From the IMG/VR virus record IMGVR_UViG_3300038345_000144: a stretch of DNA of 64,000 nt. One strand, written 5' to 3'. This document shows positions 8,293-52,768 of the stretch, piece after piece. The position numbers were made by a program, and so were the translations under genes. Source of the stretch: a virus. Its lineage: Duplodnaviria > Caudoviricetes. How positions within the stretch are numbered: the first letter of the stretch is position 1; each line of letters opens with the position of its first letter. Under the pieces are notes generated by a model. That model saw nothing but the letters and a program-made list of their open reading frames with translations. It had not been told where the DNA came from and made no database searches.

Positions 8293-10546
8293 TCGAGTCC
8301 TCTTCCTTTCCCATAATAGAGTTAATTTGCTGTAAATCCCTCTCGTCCAAACCCTTATAGTCTACGACATTGTTCTCAATGGAGATACTGTAACCCATTG
8401 ACTTAACAACCTCAATAAAGTTAAGGGAAAGTCTTGTATTTTCTGGAAGTTCTCTGGTTTCCTGCATATCAGCAATCATTCTGTGGGAGCCAATATACTT
8501 TGTAACACTTCTGATACCCAACTCCTTGAGGATATTAGGGCAATCGTTTGCTACAAGGTTCATCTTCTCCATTTCACCGAACTTCAGTGTTCTGCCGTAT
8601 GCGGAGTCTGCCGATGACTCGGAGATATGGGTTGCGGCGTGGTGGTACAGTCTCATAATATAGTTGAGACCAACAGGTACGGTCTGCTTCTGTCCCTTAT
8701 ACTCCAATACAGAGTTCTTGGCATATTCCTTCATCTGGTCAGCATAACGCTCAATCATAATAGCAATAAAGTCTTCGTTTTCACCGTATTCAATATTGCT
8801 TGCCAATGCCCAAGCCTCAAAAATCTGACCAAGTGAACCTCTACGCATTGTAGAGAAACCTGAAATAACAATTTCCATAGGTCCTGCCTTCATATCGCCT
8901 ACATCGTGCAAGAGACGAGGCATCTGGTCGTCAGGAAGGATAAGTCCTACTGTACCCTTCGCACCGTGGAGGTTGGTAATCTTATCACCAAGTCTGAACG
9001 GGATTTCCCAAGACAGGAATACACGGATATTGTTCTTATCTACCTCATCAAATCTGTCAATCTTGAAGTTCTCATAGTTTGAAAGCACAGCGTCACTCTT
9101 GTTAGGGAATAACTGCTTAAGAGCCTCTAAATTAAAGTCCTGCTTGGCAATAAGAGCAAAGTCCTTTGAATTCTTATTTAAGTATAAAATTGTCTTGTCA
9201 AAAGTTCTTAACCTTTCGGCAAATGACTTTGAAATAATCATTGAGTCGGCGGCAGTATATCCCTCAATGTCGCAAAAACAAACCCTTGCCTTAATTCTGT
9301 GTGTAAGAGGGTCAATTTCCTCTGCTAACGGAACTGCCTGTGATGTCATTTTAGCGTTCATCATAATACGCTTCGGCTTATCGTTGTTACCAAACGGAGC
9401 CTTTGACAAACAAGAAAGACGGGCTTTCTGCGGGTCGGTGAAATACTCGTACATATTCTTCTGTACGCCGTTCTCATCTACAATCCACAACATTCCCTTC
9501 TTCGTTACAACATTATCAAGCAACAATCTCTGACGACCTGCTGACTGTGATGTTACAGTCTTGAATGAGTCAAAGAAACCGTTAGTGTCTGTGTAAGTAA
9601 ACGCAGGCTTGAATTTGGTCTTCTTATCATCATCACCATTATGGTCGTAATGATTGCTTGGAGCGTTGTCGTTACCATTGTAAATATTTACGCAAGTTCT
9701 GAAGTTTTCAAGTGCAAAAATAAGGCTTTCGCTACGAACAAGGCAACCTTCGAGGTTCTCGCCTGATGTCGTGTACTGCTTTGCCTTTGAAGCAATAATA
9801 GTGTTGATACCCAAGAGTATCTTCTTTGTAGGTTGAGCAAACTTCTTGGAGTTAAGGATAATATCCTCAAAGTATTCCATTCTGGAGAACTTATAATTGA
9901 AGATACTGTCGCTCCTGAACTTTGGAACCTGTCTCAAAGCCTCTGTAAAGTTATCCAGTGTGAGAGGCTCCTTGATAATAGACATCAACAAGCACTTGGA
10001 CCTGAAAGTGAGGTTATTGAATACCTCTTCTTTTGTAGGCTCAAACTGGTTTTTAGGGTCTTTGTAAGTACATTCAAAGGTGTCAGAAGGAATATCATAC
10101 TTCCAACCGTTATCACCTCTGATGGTCTGGAAATCCCAACGAGCCAAAGCCCCGTAGAAGTCCTTAACGGCTGTCACACGGGTTACATAGTGGGTTCTGT
10201 TGATAATCCAGCAAAGGTCAATACAGGGCAACGGCATCGCCCCTAATTTGAGACGCTTGCCGTTGTAATCACCTGAAATATCGACACACATAGAGTGAAA
10301 ATTTAACTTCAACTGATATGAGTTCTTTGTCTGTTTAGACGCATCATAGTTAAGTACGCCGTTGTTAAAATATCTGGCTAACTTACAGGGTGAGTCCGTA
10401 TTCCAATACTTCTCGCAATCCCTGTCGATGCTTGCCTGAATATCAGCAAAGTTGTCATTTTCATCAATAGGAGTTAGCCCCAAAAAAGACTGATTTGCAA
10501 CAGTCCAAAAGGCTAACTCTTTGGCATAAAGTTCCGTAATTGTCAT
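8267..10546 (-). CDS. rpoB: RNA polymerase beta-like subunit
   Basis: RIMMNAKMTSQAVP, EGYTAADSMIIS, GDKITNLHGAKG, MRLYHH, KFGEMEK correspond to conserved RpoB blocks. Confidence 0.9.
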   Translation of the reverse strand: MTITELYAKELAFWTVANQSFLGLTPIDENDNFADIQASIDRDCEKYWNTDSPCKLARYFNNGVLNYDASKQTKNSYQLKLNFHSMCVDISGDYNGKRLKLGAMPLPCIDLCWIINRTHYVTRVTAVKDFYGALARWDFQTIRGDNGWKYDIPSDTFECTYKDPKNQFEPTKEEVFNNLTFRSKCLLMSIIKEPLTLDNFTEALRQVPKFRSDSIFNYKFSRMEYFEDIILNSKKFAQPTKKILLGINTIIASKAKQYTTSGENLEGCLVRSESLIFALENFRTCVNIYNGNDNAPSNHYDHNGDDDKKTKFKPAFTYTDTNGFFDSFKTVTSQSAGRQRLLLDNVVTKKGMLWIVDENGVQKNMYEYFTDPQKARLSCLSKAPFGNNDKPKRIMMNAKMTSQAVPLAEEIDPLTHRIKARVCFCDIEGYTAADSMIISKSFAERLRTFDKTILYLNKNSKDFALIAKQDFNLEALKQLFPNKSDAVLSNYENFKIDRFDEVDKNNIRVFLSWEIPFRLGDKITNLHGAKGTVGLILPDDQMPRLLHDVGDMKAGPMEIVISGFSTMRRGSLGQIFEAWALASNIEYGENEDFIAIMIERYADQMKEYAKNSVLEYKGQKQTVPVGLNYIMRLYHHAATHISESSADSAYGRTLKFGEMEKMNLVANDCPNILKELGIRSVTKYIGSHRMIADMQETRELPENTRLSLNFIEVVKSMGYSISIENNVVDYKGLDERDLQQINSIMGKEEDSNEDNSEAD

Positions 10547-17564: not shown

Positions 17565-17595
17565 TGTAGTAATTTCCTCTCTTTAAGATGGTTTC

Positions 17596-17625
17596 ATTAT
17601 ACCAAAGAGGTTATCTTTTTGTAAA
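17596..17625 (-). promoter_or_regulatory. sigmaA-type promoter
   Basis: TTTACA-N18-TATAAT. Confidence 0.65.
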
Positions 17626-18863: not shown

Positions 18864-19075
18864 ATTACAGCCCCCATAAATGAGGAAAGTTGAACGAGTT
18901 GTCAATGAACCCTTGTCAGCTTTGAACAACCTCCGATGCGGAGAACAGCCGTTTTACGCCAAGATTTGCTGAACAACCCCCGAAACGGGGAAACTTGTGC
19001 ATATATTACACAAGTTCTTTGTGGACTAAACCGCAGAGTTTGAGTCCTTTAGAACAACCCCCGAAACGGGGAAAA
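18864..19075 (-). CRISPR. Degenerate type I-E-like CRISPR mini-array (4 repeats, 3 spacers)
   Basis: Minus-strand repeats TTTTCCCCGTTTCGGGGGTTGTTCT (19051-19075), GTTTCCCCGTTTCGGGGGTTGTTCA (18970-18994), GTTCTCCGCATCGGAGGTTGTTCA (18923-18946), CTTTCCTCATTTATGGGGGCTGTAAT (18864-18889); each is a hairpin plus 8-nt tail; spacers 56, 23, 33 nt. Confidence 0.7.
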
Positions 19076-19087
19076 TTTCCCTTCCTA

Positions 19088-20161: not shown

Positions 20162-20441
20162 TTAGTACCTCTTTCTTTTGTGGTTTATGATATTTGATAA
20201 TCAAAATAAACTGGATGATTACTTCCAGCATTACTACGGAACTGAATAGCATTTCATACCAAGTAACTTTGGTCAGTACCCAGTACACCATCCACAACGA
20301 GTTCATAAACAATACCAAAATCTGAGATAACAGTGATATATCCTGACTTGATTTTGTTCTCACCAACTTGACTATCTGGGGCAAGAAGGTGCAAAACTCT
20401 ATGGTGTGTAATGCACAAAAAATTATGTCAGCAACATTCAT
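20154..20441 (-). CDS. PQ-loop (SemiSWEET-like) transporter
   Basis: FLPQIVKLVRTKSSQDIS; three TM helices. Confidence 0.8.
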   Translation of the reverse strand: MNVADIIFCALHTIEFCTFLPQIVKLVRTKSSQDISLLSQILVLFMNSLWMVYWVLTKVTWYEMLFSSVVMLEVIIQFILIIKYHKPQKKEVLNG

Positions 20442-20664
20442 TAAGTCGTACTTCCTTTTTGAAATGCCAGTATATCCAGCCTTTCATCAAAGGTAATAAC
20501 TCCAATTTCATACAATACACGGGTAAAACCTCTAATGTATTCATAAGTGGACTCGCTTGGCTTATCAAAGTATCTCTCAAGCATTTGTCCCAATCTGTCG
20601 TTATATCCTTTTACTTTTTTTAGTGTTTCTGCTTTTATAGGCATAGTGTGTTCTCCATTTCTTT

Positions 20665-35455: not shown

Positions 35456-36112
35456 ATGAGTTTTTGGACACATATTAACGGGGTTATCACCCTTGATGTT
35501 GCAGGCAGAACACAGGTAGAAATGGACTATATTATTGGTTCAATTCTTGACCATCTTCCAAAGGTTACTGGTTCAGAGCGTGATATGGAGTTTTATCTTA
35601 CTCCTGTTAAGGGTTCAAATTGTTCTTGTAGTTGTGACGAATATGAACAGGATAGTAACCTTCTTCCATCAAAGTATGGTGGAAGGTTTGGTTGGTTGGA
35701 AACCCAGTCAGTTTATTTATTAACCGTTCACGGCTCTCTCCGTGATAGAATGTTTGAGGAAACATTTAAGGAGTTTCTTAACTTTGCTACCCGTCTTGCT
35801 AAAAGATGTATGGTAACTGATATTCTGGTTAGCGTCACTGGTTATAGTGAGAAAGGTTATGGGTTTAAGAAGACTGTTATATCTGATTACAAGCCTTTTT
35901 CTGATATGTATGAATACCCAAGTTGGTCAATTGGCAACGAGACAGGTGAACCTGCTTGGTGGGAACACTTAATGTGGGATAGATTTGGCAATTCTGCATT
36001 ACCTCTTAATCTCATTGTAAAGTATTACAAGGATGAAAAGGCTGATGCTGAATGGGATAGGCGAATGAACGCTAATAACGGCGAAGATGATACCGAAGAT
36101 ACCAAACAGTAA
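35456..36112 (+). CDS. Conserved phage hypothetical protein
   Basis: MSxWTHING...VTGSE...GSLRDR pattern; RBS. Confidence 0.7.
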   Translation: MSFWTHINGVITLDVAGRTQVEMDYIIGSILDHLPKVTGSERDMEFYLTPVKGSNCSCSCDEYEQDSNLLPSKYGGRFGWLETQSVYLLTVHGSLRDRMFEETFKEFLNFATRLAKRCMVTDILVSVTGYSEKGYGFKKTVISDYKPFSDMYEYPSWSIGNETGEPAWWEHLMWDRFGNSALPLNLIVKYYKDEKADAEWDRRMNANNGEDDTEDTKQ

Positions 36113-36124
36113 GGAGAAATCAAA

Positions 36125-39100
36125 ATGAAAACATCGGACTTAATTAAAAAGCATATTTCAGAAATGGACTCAAAGGACCCTATTCTGTTTTACATTGTCA
36201 AAAAGCCACACAGAGAAAATAGTGAGGACTTTCATTTACGCTTTTACTCTGATGACTTTAGATGTCAGTGTGAAGATGACTTTGTAACTGGAAGTGAGTG
36301 TATGTGTCAGCAGATAGCATATCTCACCGAGAAGTACGCAAAGAGAGGAATTCAGGTAGTCTTTGAATTTAGTGAGCAGATGAAGCCAGATTATATTATA
36401 TCTGACAGTCAGTTTGCTCCTATTTATGATTACGAAATAATGGAAGCAAGGACAGTATGAATTTAGAATTAGTTAGTAACATTTTTTTAACCATATCGGC
36501 TTTTGCTTTTTGTTTCTGGATTGGTTTGCGTGTTTGGAGGATGTCCTAATGTATCGAAAAGAACACATACCACCTCTGCTATCGGCGGCAACGATACTGG
36601 GAAGAATTATCCGAGTATTGTTAGATAAACAGTTAATTGACCGTGAGGATGCCCTGTATATACTTGGGGATAGAGATTATAAGGAGGAAGAGTAAATGAC
36701 TGCTCTTGAGATTTTAGAAAAGATTAAAGCCCAGATTGAGAAAACATATTACAGTCAGGGCGAAGGCTTTGACGATTATTCAGATGGATTTATTAGGGCT
36801 AAAAATGAAGACCTGAAAATCCTTGACTGTTTTATTACAAGAGCCAAGTGGAAGGAAAATAAGAAAAGCAACAATGTCCAGACCGTTTGCGGAAACAATC
36901 CAAAATGGTGTGAGAGTTGCGTATCAAAAGGCAAATGTGCAAGTACAGGACCGCAAAGCGAGCGTGAGTTTATAGAAATACTTGCTCAAAATGTACCTGA
37001 TGATATTACTCCTGTTGATTACAGAGGAAAGCCTTATTATTCAATTCACTATAAGGAAAACGGAAAGGATTTTGTTGGCTTTGGTACTTACAAGCCCGAA
37101 GTATTATCCAGTTATTTGAGAGACTATTTTATGAAAGGAGATGCGAAATGAATACTACAAAATTCTTATTTTATAAGAGGATGATGGACAAACAAATTAT
37201 GCAATTAAGATATGCGTGAGGTTAATGAAGAATGAAATGCCCTAAATGTGGTACAGAAATGGTTTGGGTGGGTGATGTTCAAATATTGATTAAAGATACA
37301 GACAAATATCTTTATAAATTATCCAAGAAAGCATTTCGTAGTAAAGATATTAAATTGGTAGCAGTTAATTGGAATAAGGGAGATTTGTTTTGTCCTAACT
37401 ATTTACAATGTGGAAATCATCCATTGTTGAAAGGCGGTAAGAAATGAGACTTGGTGATTTAGATGCTTTGAAAAAGGAGTTTATAAACGAATTCTATACG
37501 GCACTTGGTCAGGGTGAAGATAGTTTTGATGTTATTGGTACTATGGCAAAAGTTATCGACAATGCCCCGACAGTTGAAGAAAGACTAAAAGGCGAGTGGG
37601 TAGTAGAAAAGAACAAGTTTGGTGATATTCTACATTGTTCTATATGCGGTGCAAGACCTCGCAGAAGTGAGTATGGATATGACTTACACGATAAGTTTTG
37701 TAATGAGTGTGGTGCGGATATGAGAAAGGCTGAAGAATGAGTGTTGAAAACGGTAAAGTCTGCTGTAATTGCCGACATTGTAAAAGAATAGCCAAAGAGC
37801 ACGGAAAACATATTGAGTGTCGTTGTGATATAGATAATGCTTATCTGACTTATACGACGGTTTTGAGTTATTGGTGTCGGCATTGGGCAAAAGAAAGCGA
37901 GAAAGGTGGTACGGAAAATGACAGATAAAGAAAAAGCAATAGTTATGGCTTATACGGGAGTTGCTATGCTTACTGGAGACAAGTTCTCTATATTTCATAA
38001 GTACATCGAGGACCTCTTGAACCGACCTGTGTTTACTCACGAATTGGCAAGCGAAGAGGTTTGGAACGAGATTAAGGAAAAATCAAAGGATGACTTTTTG
38101 AAGTTGTGTAGAGATTAAACTATTGCTGTGTAAATATACAGAAAGGCGGTGCGGAAAATGACGGATAAAAAGACCGTTTATTGGCTTAAAGAAATCAAAA
38201 AGGAACTGAAAACAAGAAGGTTCCCTGAATACAAAGACGAAGTTTTCGAGGCACTTGATACGGCTATTGCCAAATTCAATGAACCTGAAATCACATACGC
38301 TTGGCAGGATAGTATTCCTAATGTTGATAACGATTATGGTAAATATTCTCACACTTGCCCTAATTGTCATACGGCACAGCGTAACAAGAGTAAGTTCTGT
38401 CCCGACTGTGGAGCCAAAATGAAATTTGATGAGGTAACAAAAAATGAATGACGAAAAGGCATTAGAACAGTTAGAAGAATTTTTGGTGATTGATGATTGG
38501 TCAGCCGTATATATGCCTTACTTACAAGACGCTATTGAATATGTTATCAATCGCATAAATGCAGACAGGTGGGTTCCAGTATCAGAAAGATTGCCAGACA
38601 AAGAGGGCAAATGCTTGGTAACAACCGACTTCGGAGATGTATGTGAGGATAGTTTTGTGGACGGTATGTTTGTTTTATATCTTGGTAATGTTATTGCTTG
38701 GAAATATAAACCTGAACCATACAAGGAGAATAAAGAATGATAGATAACATTGACGAGGCAATTAAACATTGTCTTGAAAAGGCAGAAGAAAAGAAGAAAG
38801 AGGCAGACTACCTTGATGCACCTTACGGAATGGACACAAGCGAAAGAACAAGTTGCCTTGACTGTGCAAACGACCATTTACAGTTAGCCCAATGGTTAAC
38901 TGAATTAAAAAACTATCAAGACCCTAACAGGAAGTGTTCTAATTGCAAATATAACAGCCAGTGTGGTCCTGATTATGAGCGTTATGCACAAACAACAGAG
39001 GGAACTCTTTATAAACACAAGGTCAGCGGAGTTCTAAAACTTGTTATAAAACACCCAAAATGCAGAAATTGTAGTGCAACCGTTTTAAGACATTTTGAGC

Positions 39101-43564: not shown

Positions 43565-43732
43565 AATTTCTCCTTGTTTAGTGGTTTAACAACCCTCTTA
43601 TTATACTACATATTCGTATAAAAAGTAAAGTATTGTCAAGACATCTTGATAGTTACAAAGAGGCTTAACCAATTAAAAACGACCACTCCGAAAAGCAGTC
43701 GTTTTCACAAATTCTACCAAAAGGTAAAAGTA

Positions 43733-46135
43733 TTATGGGACAATAGTAGTGAGCCAACGGAGACCATCTTCCGTAAGAACAACGCCGTCACGCAACAGGT
43801 CTTGCCTATCGTAGAAGTTAATATCCTCGATAAGTTTATGCTCGAACTTTTTAAGCGGAGCCATAATAGCGTCATCTTTATATTCAGATATAGTAACAAC
43901 ACACTTCTGCATAACTTCCTTTATCTTACTAAAGTTGTGTTCAATGTCTGCGATGTTTGCCATATCGACAATAGCGATAGATACCGTAGGATAGGTCTCA
44001 AACCTTGTTACCGCCAGACTGCCTCCGAACTTATCATAGTCCTTTTCAAACATATTATCGTCCGTAGGCTTCTTAATCAGACAGTTACCTGCCATTAAGT
44101 CCTTATGCAAGTTCTTGGTCAAATCAAGGCTTGAATAAACGGTATCAATCAGTCCTCGAATATCTTTGACATTGTTAATTGTCTTTTTATTCTTCAAAAC
44201 CGCTACGGTACGGGCAAGGATTTCCCTGCTGTAAATAGAAACACCGAAACGGTCTCTTGGAATAATAACAGTGATTGGTGTTGTGATGTGTTCTTTCTCT
44301 CTGACTGTATCTTTGTCGGGGTGTCGCCAAACTCTACCAAATCTCTGAATAAGGAGGTCAATAGGGGCAATAGCCGTGAACATTCTATCCAAGTCAATAT
44401 CCAACGACTGCTCGATAATTGAGGTAGCCGTAAGTGTGAGCCTCGGAGGTCTTTCTGTTCTGTCCTTACCCAGAATATCAATGATGTCTTTGGTCTTTTT
44501 CTCTTTATGCTCTACGGTATCACGACCATTGAACATCATTACATTAGGCAAGCCAATCTTCTTTGCCTCGTCATAAAGTCTCCAAGTCTTATCAACCGTA
44601 CTCTCGATATAAGCCGTACAACCGTTATAGTTAGTTGCCATAAACTTATTCCAAGTCTCTTCGTAGTCATCTGTTTCGATAACATCAATATTGAAGGTAC
44701 GCTCATCACAGGAAACCTCGGTAAATGCCATACCATTAGCCACACTGTATGTGGTAATAAGAGGATATGCGTCATTCTTTACAAACTGGTCTCTGGTGCA
44801 ACCACTGGCTTCAAGTAACTCTCTCTTGGTTACTGAAGGGAGTGTAGCGGAGAGCAGGATAACAGGAATATCGAGGAACCTGCACCACTGTATAAGCATC
44901 TTAATCTCGGCAATCATATATGAGTCATAGGCGTGAACCTCGTCAATTACGATTACCTTATCAGACAAACCAATAAGTCCAATGCAGGAATATTTCTGGT
45001 AAAGCACGGTCTTGAGGATTTGGTCAACCGTACCTACTGCATAAGGATATAACAAGTGATGTTTTGTCTTATGAGTCCACAAATATTGAGGTATCTTTGT
45101 CATATCGGCATCTGTCCAGATTTCACTACTGTCCAATTCTGGAATATTCATTCCCAGACCGATTTTCTGTGCTACCTTATTCATACGGAGGGACATACCC
45201 TTTGCCGTAGCCATTGTAGGAGTAGCAAGGTAAATACCAGATTTGTTAGCACCAATCTGCTTGGCGGCTACCAGAGAGGCTTCCGTCTTACCACCACCGC
45301 AAGGGTACTCTACAATCATAAGTGAAGGATTAGACTTTGAGGCTTCAATAATCTTCTCCTGCAACTCATTCTTTTCAAAGTCAAAAGCCATATCCCAAGT
45401 AACATTCTTGAGACGGTCTTTCATAGGTACATATCCCAACGCATTATTCTGTATGAAGTTTTTAGCCCATACTCTACGGTCCAGCGAGTTAGTAGGCATT
45501 TTTTGCCAGTTCTCGCCAGATGCAATCCAGTCGGCTGTTACCATAATTGACAGGATAGAATACCAAACTCCGTTATGGAATTTATCAAGGTCAGCAAACC
45601 TGTCGCTGAAACTCCACTCGTTCTCAATTTCCTTAATTAAGGCAAATCCTACCTCTCTCCATTCGGGAGATACCTTATATGAGAAACCGCCCTCTGATTT
45701 AGACTGGTGGTGATATGCCAGTATGTCGGCAAATCGTTCAGCCTCAAATGAGAAGTCCTTTTCCTCAAAATAATCTTTAAGTATTTCTCTTGAGAACCTT
45801 TCGTGTCTAAAGCCGTCATAGTCTCCGTCTTTTGCAATACCACGCTTCTTGAAGTCTTCCCAAAGTTTATCAAGTTCAGGGTTCTCTTGGCATTTAGGGT
45901 ACATCTTACCCATAAAGAACGGATGAGCCTTACCTAAATCGTGGCAGGCACACAAGAACGAAATAGAACTAACTACCTCTGGGAAAGGTAATTTAACCTT
46001 ATCAGCGATAGAATGAGCCATATTAAACGCCCTACCATATTTCATTAGGGTCTCTGCAATACAGCCAACATCAAGCAAGTGATTTAGCAACTTCAAATCT
46101 GGCTTTGCATATAATTCGTCTAATTCTACTATCAT
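43733..46135 (-). CDS. cas3: CRISPR-associated HD nuclease-helicase Cas3
   Basis: HLLDV, HDLGKA, RHE, YHH, ADWIAS; GGGKTEA, DEVH, LSATLP, EQSLDID, QRFGRVWRH; ATG 46135 preferred over GTG 46177. Confidence 0.95.
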   Translation of the reverse strand: MIVELDELYAKPDLKLLNHLLDVGCIAETLMKYGRAFNMAHSIADKVKLPFPEVVSSISFLCACHDLGKAHPFFMGKMYPKCQENPELDKLWEDFKKRGIAKDGDYDGFRHERFSREILKDYFEEKDFSFEAERFADILAYHHQSKSEGGFSYKVSPEWREVGFALIKEIENEWSFSDRFADLDKFHNGVWYSILSIMVTADWIASGENWQKMPTNSLDRRVWAKNFIQNNALGYVPMKDRLKNVTWDMAFDFEKNELQEKIIEASKSNPSLMIVEYPCGGGKTEASLVAAKQIGANKSGIYLATPTMATAKGMSLRMNKVAQKIGLGMNIPELDSSEIWTDADMTKIPQYLWTHKTKHHLLYPYAVGTVDQILKTVLYQKYSCIGLIGLSDKVIVIDEVHAYDSYMIAEIKMLIQWCRFLDIPVILLSATLPSVTKRELLEASGCTRDQFVKNDAYPLITTYSVANGMAFTEVSCDERTFNIDVIETDDYEETWNKFMATNYNGCTAYIESTVDKTWRLYDEAKKIGLPNVMMFNGRDTVEHKEKKTKDIIDILGKDRTERPPRLTLTATSIIEQSLDIDLDRMFTAIAPIDLLIQRFGRVWRHPDKDTVREKEHITTPITVIIPRDRFGVSIYSREILARTVAVLKNKKTINNVKDIRGLIDTVYSSLDLTKNLHKDLMAGNCLIKKPTDDNMFEKDYDKFGGSLAVTRFETYPTVSIAIVDMANIADIEHNFSKIKEVMQKCVVTISEYKDDAIMAPLKKFEHKLIEDINFYDRQDLLRDGVVLTEDGLRWLTTIVP

Positions 46136-46136
46136 T

Positions 46137-46190
46137 TGTTTATACCCCGTAATACAAGGAAAGAAAGCGTCCCCCACCGAAGCGGGGAGT
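46137..46190 (-). repeat. Two abutting CRISPR-repeat-like hairpins in the cas6e-cas3 intergenic region
   Basis: CCCCGC-TTCG-GTGGGG-GACGCTTT then CTTT-CCTTGT-ATT-ACGGGG-TATAAACA, 1 nt before the cas3 ATG. Confidence 0.6.
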
Positions 46191-46195
46191 TAATT

Positions 46196-46777
46196 TTACT
46201 TAACTAACATCAGACCTAATCCGTAGTTCTTCATTCTGCCGACACCGTTAGTAATAAACTCTTCTGCCTTTTTAGCGTCTACTACTCTGATTTCGCCCTT
46301 GAATGATGAAGTCGGAATTCTCTTATTCTGGTTGTTGTCCAAAATAATGTCTGACTGTTTGTACTCGATAGCACCAAGCAACTCAATACCATTCTTTTCA
46401 AAAATGTTCTTCAGCCACTCGTAGCGTCCTGCATAATCCTTGATGTAGTAACGCTTGTTATCGACTACTTTATATGGGAATGTTTGTAAATCAAACTGTG
46501 TAAGTTTGCTGTAATCTCTCTTTGAAATATCAAATGACTTTACTGGGATAAAGCCCACAGCATCGACATTCTCTATATTAAAAGGAGACTGGGACTGGAT
46601 ATACATATAAATCTCGTCCCCATTTGAGATAATCTTATAAAGCAACTTATCTGATGCTCTTGATTTATCCTGTCGTCCAGTAAGCCACTGATGTACGCTA
46701 TTTGTACTCTGGACATTAAGGAGTTTTGGAGCCGTCAAGATAGATTGCCTCGTCATCTTAAGCACAGTCAAATACAT
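46196..46777 (-). CDS. cas6e: Type I-E Cas6e (Cse3)
   Basis: MYLT, N-terminal His (VHQ), C-terminal GVGRMKNYGLGLM glycine loop. Confidence 0.9.
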   Translation of the reverse strand: MYLTVLKMTRQSILTAPKLLNVQSTNSVHQWLTGRQDKSRASDKLLYKIISNGDEIYMYIQSQSPFNIENVDAVGFIPVKSFDISKRDYSKLTQFDLQTFPYKVVDNKRYYIKDYAGRYEWLKNIFEKNGIELLGAIEYKQSDIILDNNQNKRIPTSSFKGEIRVVDAKKAEEFITNGVGRMKNYGLGLMLVK

Positions 46778-47312
46778 TTTCCAAGTCCTCCTCTTTTATA
46801 AGTTCAAATTTAGTAACCAACGGCTTATTAGGTACGCAACTTCTCTTACCAAAGAATAAAGCATAAACAGGGTTTCTCAAAGCCTCATAGATTTCCTTGA
46901 GTATCTTCTCGTCGCCTCCGACATATACTTCAAATTCTGCGTTCTGAAGGTACTGTATCTTCTTAATGATAGCCTCTTCGCTACCCTTACTACCGTCCAT
47001 TGTCTTGAAGGTATTTCTCTTGTAATGCTTGTTCATATAATACTGCTGACTCTTGAGAGGGCTAACAGTCTGATAGTCCTCAAGCAACATAATGTCGTCC
47101 TTGAGTGACTTATACTTAACAACCAAATTATCCTTTAAGTAATTCTGTTGTTCCTTATTGCCTCTCTCAAAGCCCATAGCAGAACCAATGAGTCCAAACA
47201 CGGCTCTCTTTGTAGGGTGTGTTTCCGTTACATAAGAACTTCGTAATGTTGTGGACTGATTAGAAGAAAAATACTGCAATACACCAGACAGATGTATTTT
47301 TAGATATTTCAT
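46758..47312 (-). CDS. cas5e: Type I-E Cas5
   Basis: HPTKRAVFGLIGSAMG, YLQNAEF, NPVYALFFGKRSCVP. Confidence 0.9.
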   Translation of the reverse strand: MKYLKIHLSGVLQYFSSNQSTTLRSSYVTETHPTKRAVFGLIGSAMGFERGNKEQQNYLKDNLVVKYKSLKDDIMLLEDYQTVSPLKSQQYYMNKHYKRNTFKTMDGSKGSEEAIIKKIQYLQNAEFEVYVGGDEKILKEIYEALRNPVYALFFGKRSCVPNKPLVTKFELIKEEDLENVFDCA

Positions 47313-47326
47313 ACATTAGCCCTTTC

Positions 47327-48625
47327 TTAATCTGCAAGTAACGGTTCAATTGCCTTCTTGAGAGTCTTGGACAGTTCCTTAAAGTTCTTAATTCTTGTAG
47401 CGTCCTCAAACTCGCTTGCGAGGTCTGCGTAGTCGGAACCTACCATAATATACTGCTTAATATCACCTGAACGGAATGTGGTGTCGTTAGCAAACTGGGC
47501 AAGTCTCTTGATAGCCTGCTCTGAAATGCTCTCTCCACCTCTGTTTCTGATAACTGTACTCCAGTCAGGCTGAATGTTAGCACCGTCATCAATTACCTCG
47601 ATAAGTACAAAAGCAGGTGCGATGTGTGAAGAAGAACGATGCTGTGTTGCTTCAGGGGTCATTTCAATCATAGCCTGAATGAACTGTGCAGTAGTGTCAA
47701 TAACTGTCTGCTTTGTGTCCTTGTTTTCCTTACCACACTTCTTTGAACCTACGAAAGTATCAAGATTTCTCTCGAACTCCTTGAGGTTGATGTTAGCGTA
47801 TGAATACATAAGGTTAGATGAAAGTGAAAGACCTGTATTGAATGTCTCACCACTTCTCTTCTGGCTCTCTACTTCATTGAAGTCATTGTAAGCACCGAAG
47901 AACGGGTCATCACTGGTAGCACCTGAACGACCTGTGAACTTAACAGTAAAGATGTCGCTTTCAGGCATATACTCGTCTACTGAATAAGCCTGACCCATTT
48001 CCAAAGCACCGTCAACTGTACCAAGTACGCCGTCAGTAGCCATTGTACCGAAAAGTGCTTTTGCGATTGAAAGTGTTACATCATCAAGGGCAACGGTCTT
48101 TGCGACATTTGCCATCTTCTTTGTATCGGAGAAATCCTTTGGACCATTCTCCTTGAGATATGCGATAAATCCATTGATGAGGGCAGAAATCTCGGAGGCG
48201 TTAGTATTAACAATGATGTTCTTACTCTTTTCTTCCTTCTTCTCGGAGGTATCTTCCTCTTCATCTTCAGCCTTCTTCTTCTTTTTAGGCTTCTCGTCAC
48301 CTGTTGCCTTTAATCTGTCCCAACAGTTAGAACCAATGACTTCCTTACTACAAATTGCCTTACCGACGATTTCCTTTTCTTCCTCGGTAATTGTACCATC
48401 AGCAACCTTAACATCAAGACAATTACTAATCAACTTCTCGATATAACCTGTACGGATTTCCTCACAAGCAAGGCTCTCTCTGATTGCTCTCTTCTGGCAC
48501 TGTGATGAGAAACGAACACGGTTAGTACCGCCAATGATAATCTGCTTGGCTTCTCCGTCCTCGCCTCTGTTAAAAGTACCAGGATTGTACTGTTTAAGTA
48601 AATGAATTGCTACAAACTTTCCCAT
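47327..48625 (-). CDS. cas7e: Type I-E Cas7 (Cse4)
   Basis: NRGEDGEAK...GGTNRVRFSSQCQKRAIR, ALFGTM, YSYANIN. Confidence 0.9.
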   Translation of the reverse strand: MGKFVAIHLLKQYNPGTFNRGEDGEAKQIIIGGTNRVRFSSQCQKRAIRESLACEEIRTGYIEKLISNCLDVKVADGTITEEEKEIVGKAICSKEVIGSNCWDRLKATGDEKPKKKKKAEDEEEDTSEKKEEKSKNIIVNTNASEISALINGFIAYLKENGPKDFSDTKKMANVAKTVALDDVTLSIAKALFGTMATDGVLGTVDGALEMGQAYSVDEYMPESDIFTVKFTGRSGATSDDPFFGAYNDFNEVESQKRSGETFNTGLSLSSNLMYSYANINLKEFERNLDTFVGSKKCGKENKDTKQTVIDTTAQFIQAMIEMTPEATQHRSSSHIAPAFVLIEVIDDGANIQPDWSTVIRNRGGESISEQAIKRLAQFANDTTFRSGDIKQYIMVGSDYADLASEFEDATRIKNFKELSKTLKKAIEPLLAD

Positions 48626-48652
48626 AATAATTTAATTTCCTTTCGTGTGTGT

Positions 48653-49159
48653 TTAATCTTCATCGTTGTCTACACTACAACAAATGGTACTTGCCCATTT
48701 CATTCGTGTATTATTACTATTCCAGTTCTTCAGGTCTTTAAGAAGACTGTAATAATCAATTCTTTGATTACCCGCATAAGGTAATGCTCTTCTTGCGAGA
48801 CTTGCAAAGGTCTTATTGAAGTAAGCCGTATTACTATACCTCATTGATAAGAACTTTGTAATAGTCTTCTTACCAGAGTCAGAAGAGTTGATATAGAGAA
48901 GTCGAAGGATTTTTTCAAACGGAACTCTCTTATCACTGCTCTTGTTGCCCTGCTTCTCTGCATTATAGCATAAACCCGCAACTAAAAACTCGAATTCCTG
49001 CTCCCACCTCGGAGTTTCTGGTTCCATAAGTTTTGAGTAGGAGATTAGAGCCTCAATCTGACAAGTATCTAATGACTGCCCGAATGACCTACGAATAGGA
49101 TAATATTCGGATGAGTTATTGATATGTCCACACATACGGGTTACAAAATCATCAGCCAT
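48653..49159 (-). CDS. cse2: Type I-E Cas11 (Cse2)
   Basis: Small helical protein between cas8e and cas7; IDYYSLLKDLKNW; start MADDF with GGGAGG RBS. Confidence 0.75.
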   Translation of the reverse strand: MADDFVTRMCGHINNSSEYYPIRRSFGQSLDTCQIEALISYSKLMEPETPRWEQEFEFLVAGLCYNAEKQGNKSSDKRVPFEKILRLLYINSSDSGKKTITKFLSMRYSNTAYFNKTFASLARRALPYAGNQRIDYYSLLKDLKNWNSNNTRMKWASTICCSVDNDED

Positions 49160-50732
49160 TGGCAAATTCCTCCCATAATGAATAACATTTTTCTTTGGTC
49201 TTCTTGGAAAGACCTGCAAACTTGCGTTTAGCATTGACAAAATCAACAGGCGACTGAATGATGCTGGTGTTTACACAACCGTTAATCAAATCATTCGCTG
49301 TCTTAAACATAAAGTCGTTGAAGTGAGTGAATACTTCTTTAGGTTCTACATCAGCACACTCTTTCGTAAAGGTGTTAAAAAAATAATTTTCAACTGACTG
49401 TGAGAACTTGGAACTAATCTCTGCCTTCCTTGAGGTAATCTTTGCTTCGTTAATGAAGTAAGAGAGATTAGCGTTATAGTTAGTTAAAGTCCACTGGAAG
49501 ATTTCTGCCATCTTGTTATGAGCCTCGTCCTCGAAAAAATCAAACAAGTCTTGCGAAATCTCATCGAACCTACCACAAGAGTAGAACAGGTCGGTTGTGT
49601 GGAACTCAACATTTCTGTAATAGATAAAACAATCGGCATCGTGGTTATACTGGTAAGTGTCTGACAATACATTACACAAGCGTCTGTCTGTTTTCTTGGT
49701 AATCTCTGTCAGCAACTCACTAACCTTGATGTCGTTTTTATAATTCCACTTCTGACACACGCCCTTCTTATCCAACTTCTTAATGCCGTAAGGGTATATC
49801 TCAAAATATACATTTTCAAGGGCTTTACGAGCGTCCTTGTCAATAACCTGTCTATGAGTCTTGCCTGCGAATACTCCGCATACGGTCTCTCCGTCCCTTC
49901 TCAAAATATAGACAGGGAAAGAGGGGAAGAACGAACAAATCAAGTGGTTCTTTCCTAAAAATTCTCCGTAAGCATCAGGAATATCGAAGATACTATCGAA
50001 CTCCCATACTGGCTTATCATACATTGTATTAGGATTGTATTCATCAGGCTTGGAACTATCTCTCAAAGGAAGTGAATTATATATAATAGTCTCCTTGAGG
50101 TTCTTACCCTGTAACAATACAAAAAGTCTCATTCTATTCAAGAGTGAGTTAATAGGGTACGGACCAGGTGCTATCGTGATACCCAGATGGTTCATAAACA
50201 ACAGAGCATACACAGTCTCGGCATCATCCATCTTGTAACTTTCAATAAGTTCCTCTTCTGAACCTGCGGTTCCACTCTCAAAAATCTTGTTAGCAGAACC
50301 AGGTGCGAGAGGGTTGATGTTAAGTATATAGGTATGTTTCTTATCCTTTTCTTCAGTCTTTTCTGCTGTTTCCTTGAGTGTAATATCCTGCATAAAGGGA
50401 AATTGCTCGTCATAGAGATTGAACTTATGCTCCCACTTATCAAGGTATTTAAGGATTGTTTTAAGGTTCCAACCCTTCTTCATCAACTTTTGACTGAAAT
50501 ATTTTCCACCAGCCTCGAAATCATTTTCAGGCTTGAAATAGGCTGAAAGTAAGATTACTGATAAGAACTGCATAACGGGTACATCATAAATATACGCCTT
50601 TTTACCGTGAAAGGTGGGCGTATATAAACACTTGATTTTATCTGCGTCAGTAAATGCTTGTCTAACAGAAATCTGCTCGTTATGTCCGTCTAAATAAGTA
50701 ACAAATAGCCATTTGTCGTTAATGACATTCAT
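49152..50732 (-). CDS. cas8e: Type I-E Cas8e (Cse1)
   Basis: MNVINDKWL, YLDKWEHKFNLYDEQFPFMQ, GKNLKETIIYN, PVWE. Confidence 0.85.
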   Translation of the reverse strand: MNVINDKWLFVTYLDGHNEQISVRQAFTDADKIKCLYTPTFHGKKAYIYDVPVMQFLSVILLSAYFKPENDFEAGGKYFSQKLMKKGWNLKTILKYLDKWEHKFNLYDEQFPFMQDITLKETAEKTEEKDKKHTYILNINPLAPGSANKIFESGTAGSEEELIESYKMDDAETVYALLFMNHLGITIAPGPYPINSLLNRMRLFVLLQGKNLKETIIYNSLPLRDSSKPDEYNPNTMYDKPVWEFDSIFDIPDAYGEFLGKNHLICSFFPSFPVYILRRDGETVCGVFAGKTHRQVIDKDARKALENVYFEIYPYGIKKLDKKGVCQKWNYKNDIKVSELLTEITKKTDRRLCNVLSDTYQYNHDADCFIYYRNVEFHTTDLFYSCGRFDEISQDLFDFFEDEAHNKMAEIFQWTLTNYNANLSYFINEAKITSRKAEISSKFSQSVENYFFNTFTKECADVEPKEVFTHFNDFMFKTANDLINGCVNTSIIQSPVDFVNAKRKFAGLSKKTKEKCYSLWEEFANG

Positions 50733-50854: not shown

Positions 50855-52768
50855 TTACTTTCTCAAGTTACAACAGTCGTCAGGATTAGGGTTAAACTGG
50901 GTGTTCCAGAACTCGTAAGCCTCGTCTTCATCTTCGCATACGGAGATTTCCTTAAAGCCCTTAATATTCTGGATTAACTCCTTCTTCTTTGCTAATGGAA
51001 GATGGTTATAACCACCGTGCTTAACCGTGTATGGAGTGAAGTCAATATCAAACCACTTCTTAATCCAAGTGTTGACTCTCAAGAACTCAACGATAATCTT
51101 ATCACACTTAATCTTTGCCAACTTATCGTAGTCAACAAATTCAGGAATAAACGGAGAAAGTCTTACCTGAACATCAAAACCACGCTCATAGAGTCTCTCT
51201 ACTGCCCAAATTCTTCTGCTCGGTAACGGTGCTTTCTCGTAGTCCAACTTCTTATAGAGGTCATCATCAAAACAAGTAATAGTTACCTGAATATGTGCAA
51301 GTTCGGGGTCAAGAATATCGAGATACTCGTCCCTACCAATAATATCACCCTTTGTAACAATGAGGTAAGGCTGACGCTTCTCGTTTAGAGCCTTGATTAT
51401 TTCATAAGTAACTCTCTTTTCCAACTCTAACGGCTGGAAGGGGTCGGTCATACCGCCAAGTCTGATAGCGGGCATACCTGCGGGAAGTTTAGCAATCTTT
51501 CGCTTTGCCTGCTCGATATTAGTAATTGCAGGGTCCTTCGGGTTCCACAACTTTCTAAAATCAAGTAATGACTTTGCATAGCAATTATGAGAAATTACAC
51601 CATTAGCCACAAAATTACGAGTTGTTGTAGTTATGTCTACCAAAGGTTGGGTATCTTTTAACTTTTTGATACTAACAATTTTTAAGTCGCCAGCATTAAA
51701 AGTCTTGAGGGCAATATTAGCAATTTCGCCTTCTCGATTACACTTGACACATTTAACGATATTGTTAAATCTGATGCTTTCGGATAAGCCTCCTACTAAT
51801 CTTACCGTTTTGCACACACTATTTTTAGTCTTTGCTTCTTTATCAAAGGTATATGCAAATTCAAATGCAGTTAAAGCGTCCGTATATTCTTTAATTAGTT
51901 TGTCATCCGTATTATAAACTCTACGAATTAAAATATTAGAACTACCTTCGGCATCATATAAGCCCGCCAAAAAACCTCTTCTAAATTCACGGGTCTTTTT
52001 AGTATCTATGAGGTCATTGATTTCATCAAAGTTTTCTTTTGACGAAGTTCTTATTGCCATTACCGTATAGTGTTCTTTAGTGCTACGGTCAATCATCGGG
52101 AATTCAAACCAAGCAGGCTCAACCCCAAACCAAACTAAATAATCAAACACTCTATCCGTAATTGCTTCGTCTTTCAAAGCAAGTCTAAAATGATATTGAT
52201 TATCAGTATGTCTATAAGGTCTTTCTGGATAGTTATATTCCTGTAAGTTAGCGTCACCTAAAATAACACCTCTCAAGTAGCCCTTTTTGTAGTCGTCGGT
52301 CTCTTCAAAGAAAGGAACATCAAATAAAGTAGCAAATCCCATTAACTGATTATTTTCGGTAATATAAGGTCTTCTATTCTCCCCTGTCATTTCACCAGTT
52401 GTGTACTTCCAACCTCTATCAGTAAGCCACTGGTGGTCAGCAGAACAAATAAGTGTATTGCCGTTTGAGAGTTTAATCTTATATGCCTCTTTTGCCACTA
52501 TGTTTTTATTTGTTACAATGGATTTTGTAAACTTTTTATAAGTATTGCCATCGCCTTCAACAATACCATATATTTCATCACCCACCTCTATATCACCAAT
52601 AGTCTTAATAGACCCGTCATACATCAAAATTTGGGTGTCCATTGAAAGACAATAGGAACAATCGTGTTGGCATCCGCAACCGTAACTATCTAATCGTGTA
52701 GGATAATGACACTTACTACCCTCGTTGCCCTTAACTTCCTTGTAAAAACTCTTAAACTCTTTACCCAT
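50855..52768 (-). CDS. Radical SAM protein (spore photoproduct lyase-like family), intein-containing
   Basis: CQHDCSY|C motif, RLGGMTDPF, YLIVTK, VQVRLSPFIP. Confidence 0.85.
   Translation of the reverse strand: MGKEFKSFYKEVKGNEGSKCHYPTRLDSYGCGCQHDCSYCLSMDTQILMYDGSIKTIGDIEVGDEIYGIVEGDGNTYKKFTKSIVTNKNIVAKEAYKIKLSNGNTLICSADHQWLTDRGWKYTTGEMTGENRRPYITENNQLMGFATLFDVPFFEETDDYKKGYLRGVILGDANLQEYNYPERPYRHTDNQYHFRLALKDEAITDRVFDYLVWFGVEPAWFEFPMIDRSTKEHYTVMAIRTSSKENFDEINDLIDTKKTREFRRGFLAGLYDAEGSSNILIRRVYNTDDKLIKEYTDALTAFEFAYTFDKEAKTKNSVCKTVRLVGGLSESIRFNNIVKCVKCNREGEIANIALKTFNAGDLKIVSIKKLKDTQPLVDITTTTRNFVANGVISHNCYAKSLLDFRKLWNPKDPAITNIEQAKRKIAKLPAGMPAIRLGGMTDPFQPLELEKRVTYEIIKALNEKRQPYLIVTKGDIIGRDEYLDILDPELAHIQVTITCFDDDLYKKLDYEKAPLPSRRIWAVERLYERGFDVQVRLSPFIPEFVDYDKLAKIKCDKIIVEFLRVNTWIKKWFDIDFTPYTVKHGGYNHLPLAKKKELIQNIKGFKEISVCEDEDEAYEFWNTQFNPNPDDCCNLRK
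51584..52651 (-). mobile_element. Intein with LAGLIDADG homing endonuclease (356 aa)
   Basis: Starts CLSMDT, block B SADH, GYLRGVILGDA and GFLAGLYDAEG, ends NGVISHN followed by +1 Cys. Confidence 0.95.

What the first reader, a model, noticed from the sequence alone, without database searches (positions are those of the whole stretch)
46133..46195. Repeat-like hairpins on the cas3 ribosome-binding site: possible Cas6 control of Cas3 expression
Seen: the ~60-nt cas6e-cas3 gap consists of two back-to-back units of hairpin ending GGGG plus 8 nt. The second (CTTTCCTTGTATTACGGGG-TATAAACA) begins like the terminal array repeat (CTTTCCT), its tail resembles the E. coli I-E handle ATAAACCG, and it ends 1 nt before the cas3 ATG. 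The only SD-like sequence (GGGGT) is in the stem. Known: Cas6e cuts at the 3' base of such stems. Inference: Cas6 cleavage removes the SD and uncouples cas3 from the Cascade mRNA, a built-in switch between silencing and DNA destruction; the product would also mimic a crRNA whose spacer is the cas3 5' end.
Basis: partly seen in the sequence, partly recalled or inferred. Interest (0 to 1): 0.82.

Follow-up and report, generated by a model that had tools for sequence, protein, structure and literature searches.

The report
CRISPR-repeat relics forming the cas3 ribosome site
In a rumen huge phage, the 60 bases between cas6e and cas3 are two spacer-less, handle-less copies of the phage's own CRISPR repeat, the second one supplying the cas3 ribosome-binding site, so the repeat-cutting enzyme Cas6e could plausibly control Cas3 production, though nothing here shows that it does.

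Summary
On the minus strand, cas6e (46777-46196) and cas3 (ATG 46135) are separated by 60 nt. These 60 nt tile as two 28-29-nt units, each a hairpin plus 8 nt.

H1 is strong (-12.1 kcal/mol). H2 is weak (-4.3 kcal/mol), and its 3' arm GGGG is the only Shine-Dalgarno-like sequence before cas3.

Both hairpins look repeat-derived:
- H1 shares its lower five base pairs with repeats Ra/Rb of the window's remote mini-array.
- H2 resembles that array's terminal repeat.
- Two sister clades carry a full CRISPR array in exactly this gap.
- Two separate clades (window + L002; L025 + L026) keep one repeat-like unit ending at the cas3 ATG, with one compensatory stem change in each clade.

Against a working repeat: models built from relatives' repeats do not score H1 or H2. 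The 8-nt handle (family GUUNUUCN) is lost and there is no spacer. The likeness to the E. coli handle is irrelevant here.

My reading: a terminal repeat was co-opted as the cas3 translation-initiation region, since 3' arm plus handle gives SD plus spacing. Cas6e docking or cleavage is plausible but untested.

Earlier notes of this scan had already recorded this stretch and the dispersed arrays. New variant of a known kind; moderate interest.

The parts
46196..46777 (-). cas6e (193 aa). It has an invariant His29 and a C-terminal glycine-rich loop.
   Evidence: Pfam PF08798, E 6.8e-15. Family alignment A1. Matches to PDB Cse3.
46136..46195 (-). The 60-nt cas6e-cas3 intergenic gap. It is tiled by two repeat-like units.
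46164..46192 (-). Unit 1 (H1). The stem-loop at 46188-46171 reads U.G, four C-G, G.U, C-G, with a cUUCGg loop. G follows at family position 22, then the non-canonical tail ACGCUUU.
   Evidence: Folds at -12.1 kcal/mol. It is one of only three strong hairpins in the window with arms UCCCCG...GGGGG, the other two being repeats Ra and Rb. The CM gives 1.5 bits at most.
46137..46164 (-). Unit 2 (H2). The stem-loop at 46159-46145 (CCUUGU AUU ACGGGG) is followed by the tail UAUAAACA.
   Evidence: Folds at -4.3 kcal/mol. It is the positional homologue of the L002-clade hairpin: 100% of cells paired, with one compensatory pair. It resembles terminal repeat Rd.
46145..46148 (-). GGGG, the only SD-like sequence for cas3. 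It is the 3' arm of H2 and lies 9 nt from the ATG.
43733..46135 (-). cas3 (800 aa; HD domain, DEAD helicase, Cas3 C-terminal domain). It has no Cas2 domain.
   Evidence: Pfam. Start confirmed by N-terminal homology.
46758..50732 (-). Cascade genes cse1, cse2, cas7 and cas5, upstream in the same operon.
   Evidence: Pfam PF09481, PF09485, PF09344, PF09704
50777..50805 (-). Candidate promoter of the cas operon (TTTACA-17-CATAAT).
   Evidence: Consensus scan only
43675..43704 (-). Terminator-like hairpin with a U5 tract after cas3. It sits where the nearest relatives carry their array.
   Evidence: L002 and L006 arrays lie directly after cas3.
18864..19076 (-). Remote mini-array Ra, Rb, Rc, Rd with handle GUUGUUCW. 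It starts 12 nt after the stop of an AAA/CYTH gene. The Rc-Rd spacer is 32 nt.
   Evidence: A CM built from relatives only finds Ra, Rc and Rb at 16.6, 13.6 and 11.2 bits. Pfam of the neighbouring genes.

Best explanation
The gap is made of two degenerate CRISPR repeats that have lost their guide function but were kept as the 5' region of cas3.

In this family of rumen huge phages, cas3 sits inside or beside the CRISPR array on the same transcript as the Cascade genes. The family repeat ends in a GGAGG-type 3' arm plus an 8-nt handle. That is exactly a Shine-Dalgarno sequence at the right distance from a start codon. When the array left this position, the last repeat stayed on as the cas3 ribosome site. 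That relic is H2 in the window, and a single unit in L002, L025 and L026. The window's lineage has a second unit, H1, directly upstream, which keeps the lower stem of the phage's own array repeat.

I infer the following steps; none is shown:
- Cas6e in this family evidently accepts many stem sequences, so it probably still binds, and probably cuts, at the 3' base of H1 (new 5' end near 46171) and perhaps of H2 (near 46144).
- Cutting at H1 would sever cas3 from the Cascade mRNA while leaving its ribosome site intact.
- Binding or cutting at H2 would hide or remove the weak SD.
- Either way Cas3 would be held low relative to Cascade and coupled to the amount of free Cas6e.

Shown here: the sequence, the folds, the homology of position, the resemblance to the array repeats, and the conservation of pairing.
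For: 1. Positional homology.
- Arrays of 14-23 canonical repeats (29-nt repeat, 32-nt spacer) lie between cas6 and cas3 in L007, L013 and L015.
- Arrays of 2-6 repeats lie there in L001, L010, L011, L014 and L016.
- The window's closest relatives carry the array directly after cas3.

2. H1 has the same lower five pairs as the window's repeats Ra and Rb. It is one of only three such hairpins in 128 kb, and it keeps the family-invariant G after the stem.

3. H2 aligns base for base with the hairpin of the 77-78% clade. Six of six pairs are kept, with one compensatory pair (U-A to C-G) and one one-sided change. The 5' half of the gap, by contrast, cannot be aligned.

4. A second well-supported clade (L025 and L026) also has one repeat-like unit ending at the cas3 ATG. 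These score 10.4 and 9.5 bits as the best local hits, again with one compensatory pair.

5. The distance from the cleavage site to the AUG is 6-10 nt in all four lineages, and the SD is the 3' arm.

6. Array-bearing relatives carry a second SD downstream of the last repeat. This suggests that cleavage there matters for cas3.

7. In the complete 467-kb relative, repeats are embedded in operons at 8 or more loci. A solitary repeat sits between cas7 and cas5 in L007 and L008 (23 bits).

8. The tail after H1 has 3 U in 8 nt. Most of the phage's U-tailed intergenic hairpins have 5 or more.
Against: - Covariance models built from 37 and 86 repeats of relatives do not score H1 or H2 (3.3 bits at most), although they recover the window's real array.
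- The handle is not conserved and there is no spacer.
- H2 is thermodynamically weak and not significant on its own.
- The covariation rests on two lineages per clade (138 of 500 shuffles reach it). The stems could also have been inherited already different from different repeats.
- L006, L017 and L024 lack any such element.
- H1 is absent from the sister clade.
- The cUUCGg loop is typical of stability hairpins rather than of this family's repeats.
- In L008 the solitary cas7-cas5 hairpin carries a mismatch.
- An RBS-only role explains the geometry without Cas6e.
Confidence: 0.45

Rival explanations
1. This is a pure relic plus a ribosome site. The units are leftovers of an array that moved away. 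Only the 3' arm (the SD) and its spacing to the ATG are under selection. The pairing is inherited, weak and without consequence, and Cas6e plays no role.
For: - The repeat 3' arm plus handle equals an SD plus optimal spacing in all four lineages.
- The CMs do not recognise the units.
- H2 folds at -4.3 kcal/mol, and 27 of 200 shuffles fold as well.
- Some relatives have no gap at all.
- Four strains at about 98.5% identity show no change in the gap, but only about 1.5 changes were expected.
Against: - The 5' arm and its UUUC flank are kept or compensated between the window and L002, while the rest of the gap cannot be aligned. The same holds for L025 and L026.
- The SD itself weakened (GGAGG to GGGG) while its pairing partner changed in step.
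- H1 has no SD role, yet it keeps the exact lower stem of Ra/Rb while its flanks diverged.
Confidence: 0.3
2. H1 is a Cas6-independent RNA element. It could be a partial intrinsic terminator (attenuator) or a 3'-end stabiliser of the Cascade mRNA, lowering the cas3:Cascade ratio. H2 would be a simple SD-masking hairpin.
For: - H1 has a GC-rich 7-bp stem with a cUUCGg tetraloop (-12.1 kcal/mol) followed by U-rich sequence, and the terminator scan flags it.
- The cas3 leader is the second most structured of 62 genes.
- H1 is absent from the sister clade, so it could be a lineage-specific insertion.
Against: - The first 8 nt of the tail hold only 3 U, after a 4-nt ACGC spacer. The phage's clear terminators have 5-6 U directly at the stem.
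- The identity of H1's lower stem with Ra/Rb is not expected for an unrelated terminator.
Confidence: 0.2
3. This is a guide-type regulator. In one form it is a CreR/CreA-like mini-array whose product directs Cascade to a cas promoter. In the other it is a crRNA mimic whose 'spacer' is the 5' end of cas3, so that Cascade assembles on, or targets, cas3.
For: - Two degenerate repeats lie in a cas intergenic region, as in the mini-arrays described in PMC10120712 and bioRxiv 10.1101/2023.03.10.532045.
- The cas3 ORF begins where a spacer would begin.
- In L025 and L026 the handle is near-canonical.
Against: - Only 0-3 nt lie between the tail of unit 1 and the flank of unit 2, so there is no spacer.
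- The gap or the cas3 5' end shares no word of 8 nt or more with the cse1 promoter region, on either strand.
- The window's tails (GACGCUUU, UAUAAACA) do not match the family handle.
- No repeat hairpin lies 32 nt into cas3.
Confidence: 0.05

Closest known systems
Standalone repeat-like elements and regulatory mini-arrays in cas loci (Shmakov et al. 2023, PMC10120712; CreR/CreA, bioRxiv 10.1101/2023.03.10.532045)
   Same: Degenerate CRISPR repeats in an intergenic region next to cas3 of a type I-E locus. Repeat-like sequences were reported in 25-29% of cas3 flanking regions.
   Different: Known mini-arrays carry a short spacer that pairs with a cas promoter, and they act through Cascade on DNA. 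Here there is no spacer, no handle and no promoter match. The second unit is itself the ribosome site of cas3. Any control would therefore be post-transcriptional and act through Cas6e.
Racr / viral solitary repeat units (Camara-Wilpert et al. 2023, PMC10651486)
   Same: Phage-encoded solitary repeats that could bind Cas6 without giving a guide.
   Different: Racrs have their own promoter, lie away from cas genes and inhibit the host's system. These units lie inside the phage's own cas operon and resemble the phage's own repeats.
Canonical type I-E repeat and Cas6e (CasE/Cse3) processing
   Same: A 5-nt flank, a 6-bp stem, a 3-4-nt loop and 8 nt, with G at the 3' base. The family arrays have 29-nt repeats and 32-nt spacers.
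   Different: The handle is not conserved, there is no spacer, and the units are not scored by the family model.
Engineered Csy4/Cas6 sites used to insulate genes in synthetic operons (my own knowledge: Qi et al. 2012, not checked here)
   Same: A Cas6-type hairpin between two cistrons would cut a polycistronic mRNA and uncouple their expression.
   Different: That design is artificial. A natural counterpart inside a cas operon has not been shown.

Membership tests
CRISPR repeat of this phage family's type I-E arrays | Stem-loop geometry: a 5-nt flank, a stem of about 6 bp, a 3-4-nt loop, and G after the stem | tested here: met
   H1 has 6-7 bp, a tetraloop and G at position 22. H2 has 6 bp and a triloop.
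CRISPR repeat of this phage family's type I-E arrays | Conserved 8-nt handle GUUNUUCN 3' of the stem | tested here: not met
   The tails are GACGCUUU and UAUAAACA, against GUUGUUCW, GUUAUUCY or GUUUUUCU in the family.
CRISPR repeat of this phage family's type I-E arrays | Followed by a spacer of about 32 nt and another repeat | tested here: not met
   The units abut each other, and the ATG follows 1 nt after unit 2.
CRISPR repeat of this phage family's type I-E arrays | Scored by a covariance model of the family's repeats | tested here: not met
   R1 and R2 give 3.3 bits at most in the gap. The window's Ra, Rc and Rb score 11-17 bits, and relatives' repeats score 18-43 bits.
Regulatory mini-array (CreR/CreA type) | Two degenerate repeats flanking a short spacer | tested here: not met
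   Two degenerate repeats are present, but only 0-3 nt of spacer lie between them.
Regulatory mini-array (CreR/CreA type) | Spacer partially complementary to a cas promoter next to a PAM | tested here: not met
   No shared word of 8 nt or more with the 200 nt upstream of cse1, on either strand.
Racr / viral solitary repeat unit | Own promoter, not associated with cas genes, mimics the host's repeat | tested here: not met
   The units lie inside the phage's own cas operon. No promoter-like site was found in the gap. They resemble the phage's own array repeats.
Intrinsic (Rho-independent) terminator | GC-rich stem followed directly by a U tract | tested here: inconclusive
   The stem criterion is met. 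The tail ACGCUUUC has 3 U in 8 nt. The loose scan flags it, but the phage's own terminators have 5-6 U at the stem.
Cas6e substrate (bound or cleaved by the operon's Cas6e) | Binding and cleavage at the 3' base of the stem | not testable with these tools
   No RNA-protein test is available. No RNA run was usable.
Type I-E interference operon | cse1, cse2, cas7, cas5, cas6e and cas3 present and intact | tested here: met
   All six match their Pfam families above the cut-off. No cas1 or cas2 is present in the window.

The most novel reading that the evidence does not exclude
The repeat on the cas3 ribosome site is a post-transcriptional sensor. Free Cas6e (and, where the handle is intact as in L025 and L026, perhaps Cascade subunits) binds or cuts the cas3 leader and blocks Cas3 synthesis. 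When the phage's many dispersed pre-crRNAs soak up Cas6e, the site is freed and Cas3 is made. The nuclease would then appear only once Cascade is loaded with guides. This would be an RNA-level counterpart of CreR autoregulation, acting on cas3 rather than on the Cascade promoter.
Probability: 0.18. Interest if true: 0.8.

Novelty: new variant of a known kind. Interest (0 to 1): 0.55.

Why it matters
How type I systems keep the destructive Cas3 nuclease in step with guide-loaded Cascade is only partly understood. The known repeat-derived regulators act on promoters through Cascade.

Here the repeat itself has become the translation-initiation region of cas3, and this recurs in at least two clades of huge phages. 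If confirmed, it would show a second route to such control: direct action of the repeat-processing enzyme on a cas mRNA.

It would also show how adaptation-less phage systems, with fixed guides scattered through operons, reuse their repeats as gene-expression parts. Even on the plain reading, it documents how cas3 and the array trade places in this family and how a repeat turns into a ribosome site.

Tried and rejected
- **Expression data.** No RNA holder was listed for the operon. The four runs laid were all contigs, so they show no ends and no expression. They showed no variant between 46077 and 46249, which is not significant because about 1.5 variants were expected.
- **Covariance models.** R1 and R2, built from relatives' repeats, did not score H1 or H2. 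Other weak hits in the window fall in coding sequence or in a promoter and are taken as chance (8831-8860, 17572-17617).
- **CreR-type guide.** There is no complementarity to the cse1 promoter.
- **E. coli handle likeness.** Rejected, because the family handle differs.
- **GTG 46177 as the start.** Rejected on homology.
- **Promoter in the gap.** None was found.
- **Phage database.** No DNA match for the cas6-cas3 region and only a 21-nt chance hit for the remote array's spacers.
- **Exact array repeat.** Not found in viral contigs.
- **Own genome.** No whole genome is held for the window.
- **Catalytic His of Cas6e.** Alignment to solved Cse3 did not cover the N-terminus, so the catalytic His was not aligned directly.
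- **More lineages.** The exhaustive protein search found no lineage between 78% and 55% identity that could add covariation.
Full report
**What is there.** The window carries, on the minus strand, a complete type I-E interference operon. All six genes are confirmed by Pfam. No cas1 or cas2 is present.

| Gene | Coordinates |
|---|---|
| cse1 | 50732-49152 |
| cse2 | within 49246-48653 |
| cas7 | 48625-47327 |
| cas5 | 47312-46758 |
| cas6e | 46777-46196 |
| cas3 | 46135-43733 |

The context is a rumen huge phage:
- Relatives lie on contigs of 350-490 kb, and one is a complete 467-kb genome with terminal repeats.
- The stretch is held by bovine and sheep gut runs from 13 studies.

Between the cas6e stop and the cas3 ATG lie 60 nt. 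They tile as two units of 28-29 nt:
- Unit 1 (46192-46164) is a strong hairpin, H1, followed by GACGCUUU. H1 has a U.G pair, four C-G pairs, a G.U pair and a C-G pair, with a cUUCGg loop (-12.1 kcal/mol; 7 of 200 shuffles fold as well).
- Unit 2 (46164-46137) is a weak hairpin, H2, followed by UAUAAACA, then one A and the ATG. H2 reads CCUUGU-AUU-ACGGGG (-4.3 kcal/mol; 27 of 200 shuffles fold as well).

GGGG in the 3' arm of H2 is the only SD-like sequence. Neighbouring genes use AAGGAG or GGAGG. The cas3 leader is the second most structured of 62 gene starts in the window. The ATG is the true start: relatives begin 5-10 residues before the shared LYAK motif.

**Are the hairpins repeat-like?** The window's only array lies 27 kb away, on the same strand (19076-18864).
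- It has four repeats with different stems.
- The handle is GUUGUUCW.
- One of its spacers is a canonical 32 nt.

Three points favour a repeat origin:
- Among all strong GC-rich hairpins on both strands of the window, only three have arms UCCCCG...GGGGG. These are repeats Ra and Rb, and H1.
- H1 shares the lower five pairs with Ra and Rb. It also keeps the G that is invariant after the stem in the family.
- H2 shares CUUUCCU...GGGG with the terminal repeat Rd.

Two points count against a working repeat:
- Covariance models built only from relatives' repeats recover Ra, Rc and Rb (11-17 bits) but give 3.3 bits at most in the gap.
- The 8-nt tails do not match the family handle, and there is no spacer.

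The likeness of UAUAAACA to the E. coli handle is beside the point, because this family uses GUUAUUCY, GUUUUUCU or GUUGUUCW.

**Relatives.** I fetched relatives with Cas6e 39-78% identical to the window's. The cas6-cas3 junction takes several forms.

| Form of the junction | Loci |
|---|---|
| Canonical array of 14-23 repeats (29-nt repeat, 32-nt spacer) between cas6 and cas3 | L007, L013, L015 |
| Mini-array of 2-6 repeats with different stems and a constant handle | L001, L010, L011, L014, L016 |
| One repeat-like unit ending at the ATG | L002 clade (77-78% identity) |
| One repeat-like unit ending at the ATG | L025, L026 |
| No gap, or a 7-nt gap | L006, L017, L024 |

Further observations:
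- The window's nearest relatives, L002 and L006, carry the array directly after the cas3 stop. The window has a terminator there instead.
- A Cas7+Cas5+Cas6 tree groups the window with L002 (100/100) and then with L006.
- L025 and L026 form a separate clade (99/98).

cas3 in this family therefore lives inside or beside the array, on the operon's transcript. The unit before cas3 sits where arrays sit in other members.

**Evidence that the hairpin is kept.**
- H2 aligns without gaps to the L002-clade hairpin. All six pairs are kept, one by a double change (U-A to C-G) and one by a one-sided change. The 5' half of the gap cannot be aligned.
- L025 and L026 show the same pattern, with one compensatory pair.
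- With two lineages per clade this is suggestive only: 138 of 500 shuffles reach the observed value. Different stems could also have been inherited from different repeats.
- Four strains about 98.5% identical to the window show no change in the gap, but only about 1.5 changes were expected.

**What explains the geometry.** In all four lineages the 3' arm (GGAGG or GGGG) is the SD, and the AUG lies 6-10 nt after the would-be cleavage site. A family repeat (GGAGG plus an 8-nt handle) is thus a ready-made ribosome site. Array-bearing relatives, whose last repeat must be cut to mature the last guide, carry a second SD downstream of it. This fits cleavage having consequences for cas3. The co-option of a terminal repeat as the cas3 initiation region is, in my view, well supported.

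**Role of Cas6e.** This part is inference.
- The family's Cas6e processes arrays in which nearly every repeat has a different stem.
- Repeats are embedded in operons at 8 or more loci of a complete relative.
- A solitary repeat sits between cas7 and cas5 in L007 and L008.
- Binding or cutting at H1 and H2 is therefore plausible.
- A cut at H1 would separate cas3 from the Cascade mRNA and keep its ribosome site.
- Binding or cutting at H2 would mask or remove the SD.
- No RNA data could be used.

**Rivals.**
- A plain relic-plus-RBS reading explains the geometry, but not the retention of the 5' arms or of H1's lower stem.
- A terminator or stabiliser reading of H1 fits its cUUCGg loop. It fits less well its tail of 3 U in 8 nt, against 5-6 U in the phage's clear terminators.
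- A CreR-type guide is rejected: there is no spacer and no promoter match.

**Known work.** Repeat-like sequences next to cas3 and regulatory mini-arrays are described in PMC10120712 and bioRxiv 10.1101/2023.03.10.532045. Viral solitary repeats acting as anti-CRISPR RNAs are described in PMC10651486. My searches found no report of a repeat that forms the ribosome site of cas3.

**Verdict.** This is a new variant of a known kind, of moderate interest. Earlier notes of this scan had already flagged this stretch and the dispersed arrays of this genome. I tested the dispersal only in a relative.

Noticed in passing
L002:6025-6290; L006:5996-6337; L001:4589-4896; L011:3589-3953: The arrays of these phages have repeats whose stems all differ but keep their shape and a constant handle. 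The same spacers recur in contigs from different samples (L001, L010, L011, L014). This suggests fixed guides in systems without adaptation genes.
   Followed up: partly
L007:2421-2449 and L008:2421-2449: A solitary repeat-like hairpin (23 bits) lies in the cas7-cas5 gap. The two strains differ at only 9 of about 3700 operon positions, and two of those differences are the two partners of one stem pair (U.G becoming C.A).
   Followed up: partly
G001 (record of L001), e.g. C1:18264, 20275-20471, 22117, 33346, 35846-36057, 37316-37523, 54689, 433027-433117: The complete 467-kb relative carries 22 repeat hits at 8 or more loci, all on one strand. Several sit directly after a stop codon or just before the ribosome site of the next gene.
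   Followed up: partly
L001:4589-4601; L020 (G001:C1:22050-22146): Some units begin with a handle only (for example TATAGGTTTTTCA, right after the cas6 stop), with no preceding hairpin, followed by a 32-nt spacer and a full repeat. How the 5' end of that guide is made is unclear.
   Followed up: no
window 18864-19076 (-): The remote mini-array has irregular spacers of about 54, 21 and 32 nt. It starts 12 nt after the stop of an AAA_28/CYTH gene and ends in a clear terminator. L015 also has a shortened last spacer, with the same 47-nt period.
   Followed up: partly
L001:4949-7660; L016:3717-6431; L026:3229-5964: Cas3 carries an N-terminal Cas2 domain in some relatives (about 900 aa) but not in the window, L002, L006 or L007 (about 800 aa).
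   Followed up: no
window 50855-52768 (-): A radical SAM protein is interrupted by an intein with a LAGLIDADG domain, directly upstream of the cas operon.
   Followed up: no
window 47327-48625 (-), residues about 110-135 of Cas7: Cas7 carries a highly charged Lys/Glu-rich insertion that makes it about 20 residues longer than in most relatives.
   Followed up: no
L024:28-536: In this relative the array lies upstream of cas6, and cas6 and cas3 are separated by only 7 nt. This is yet another position of the array relative to cas3.
   Followed up: no
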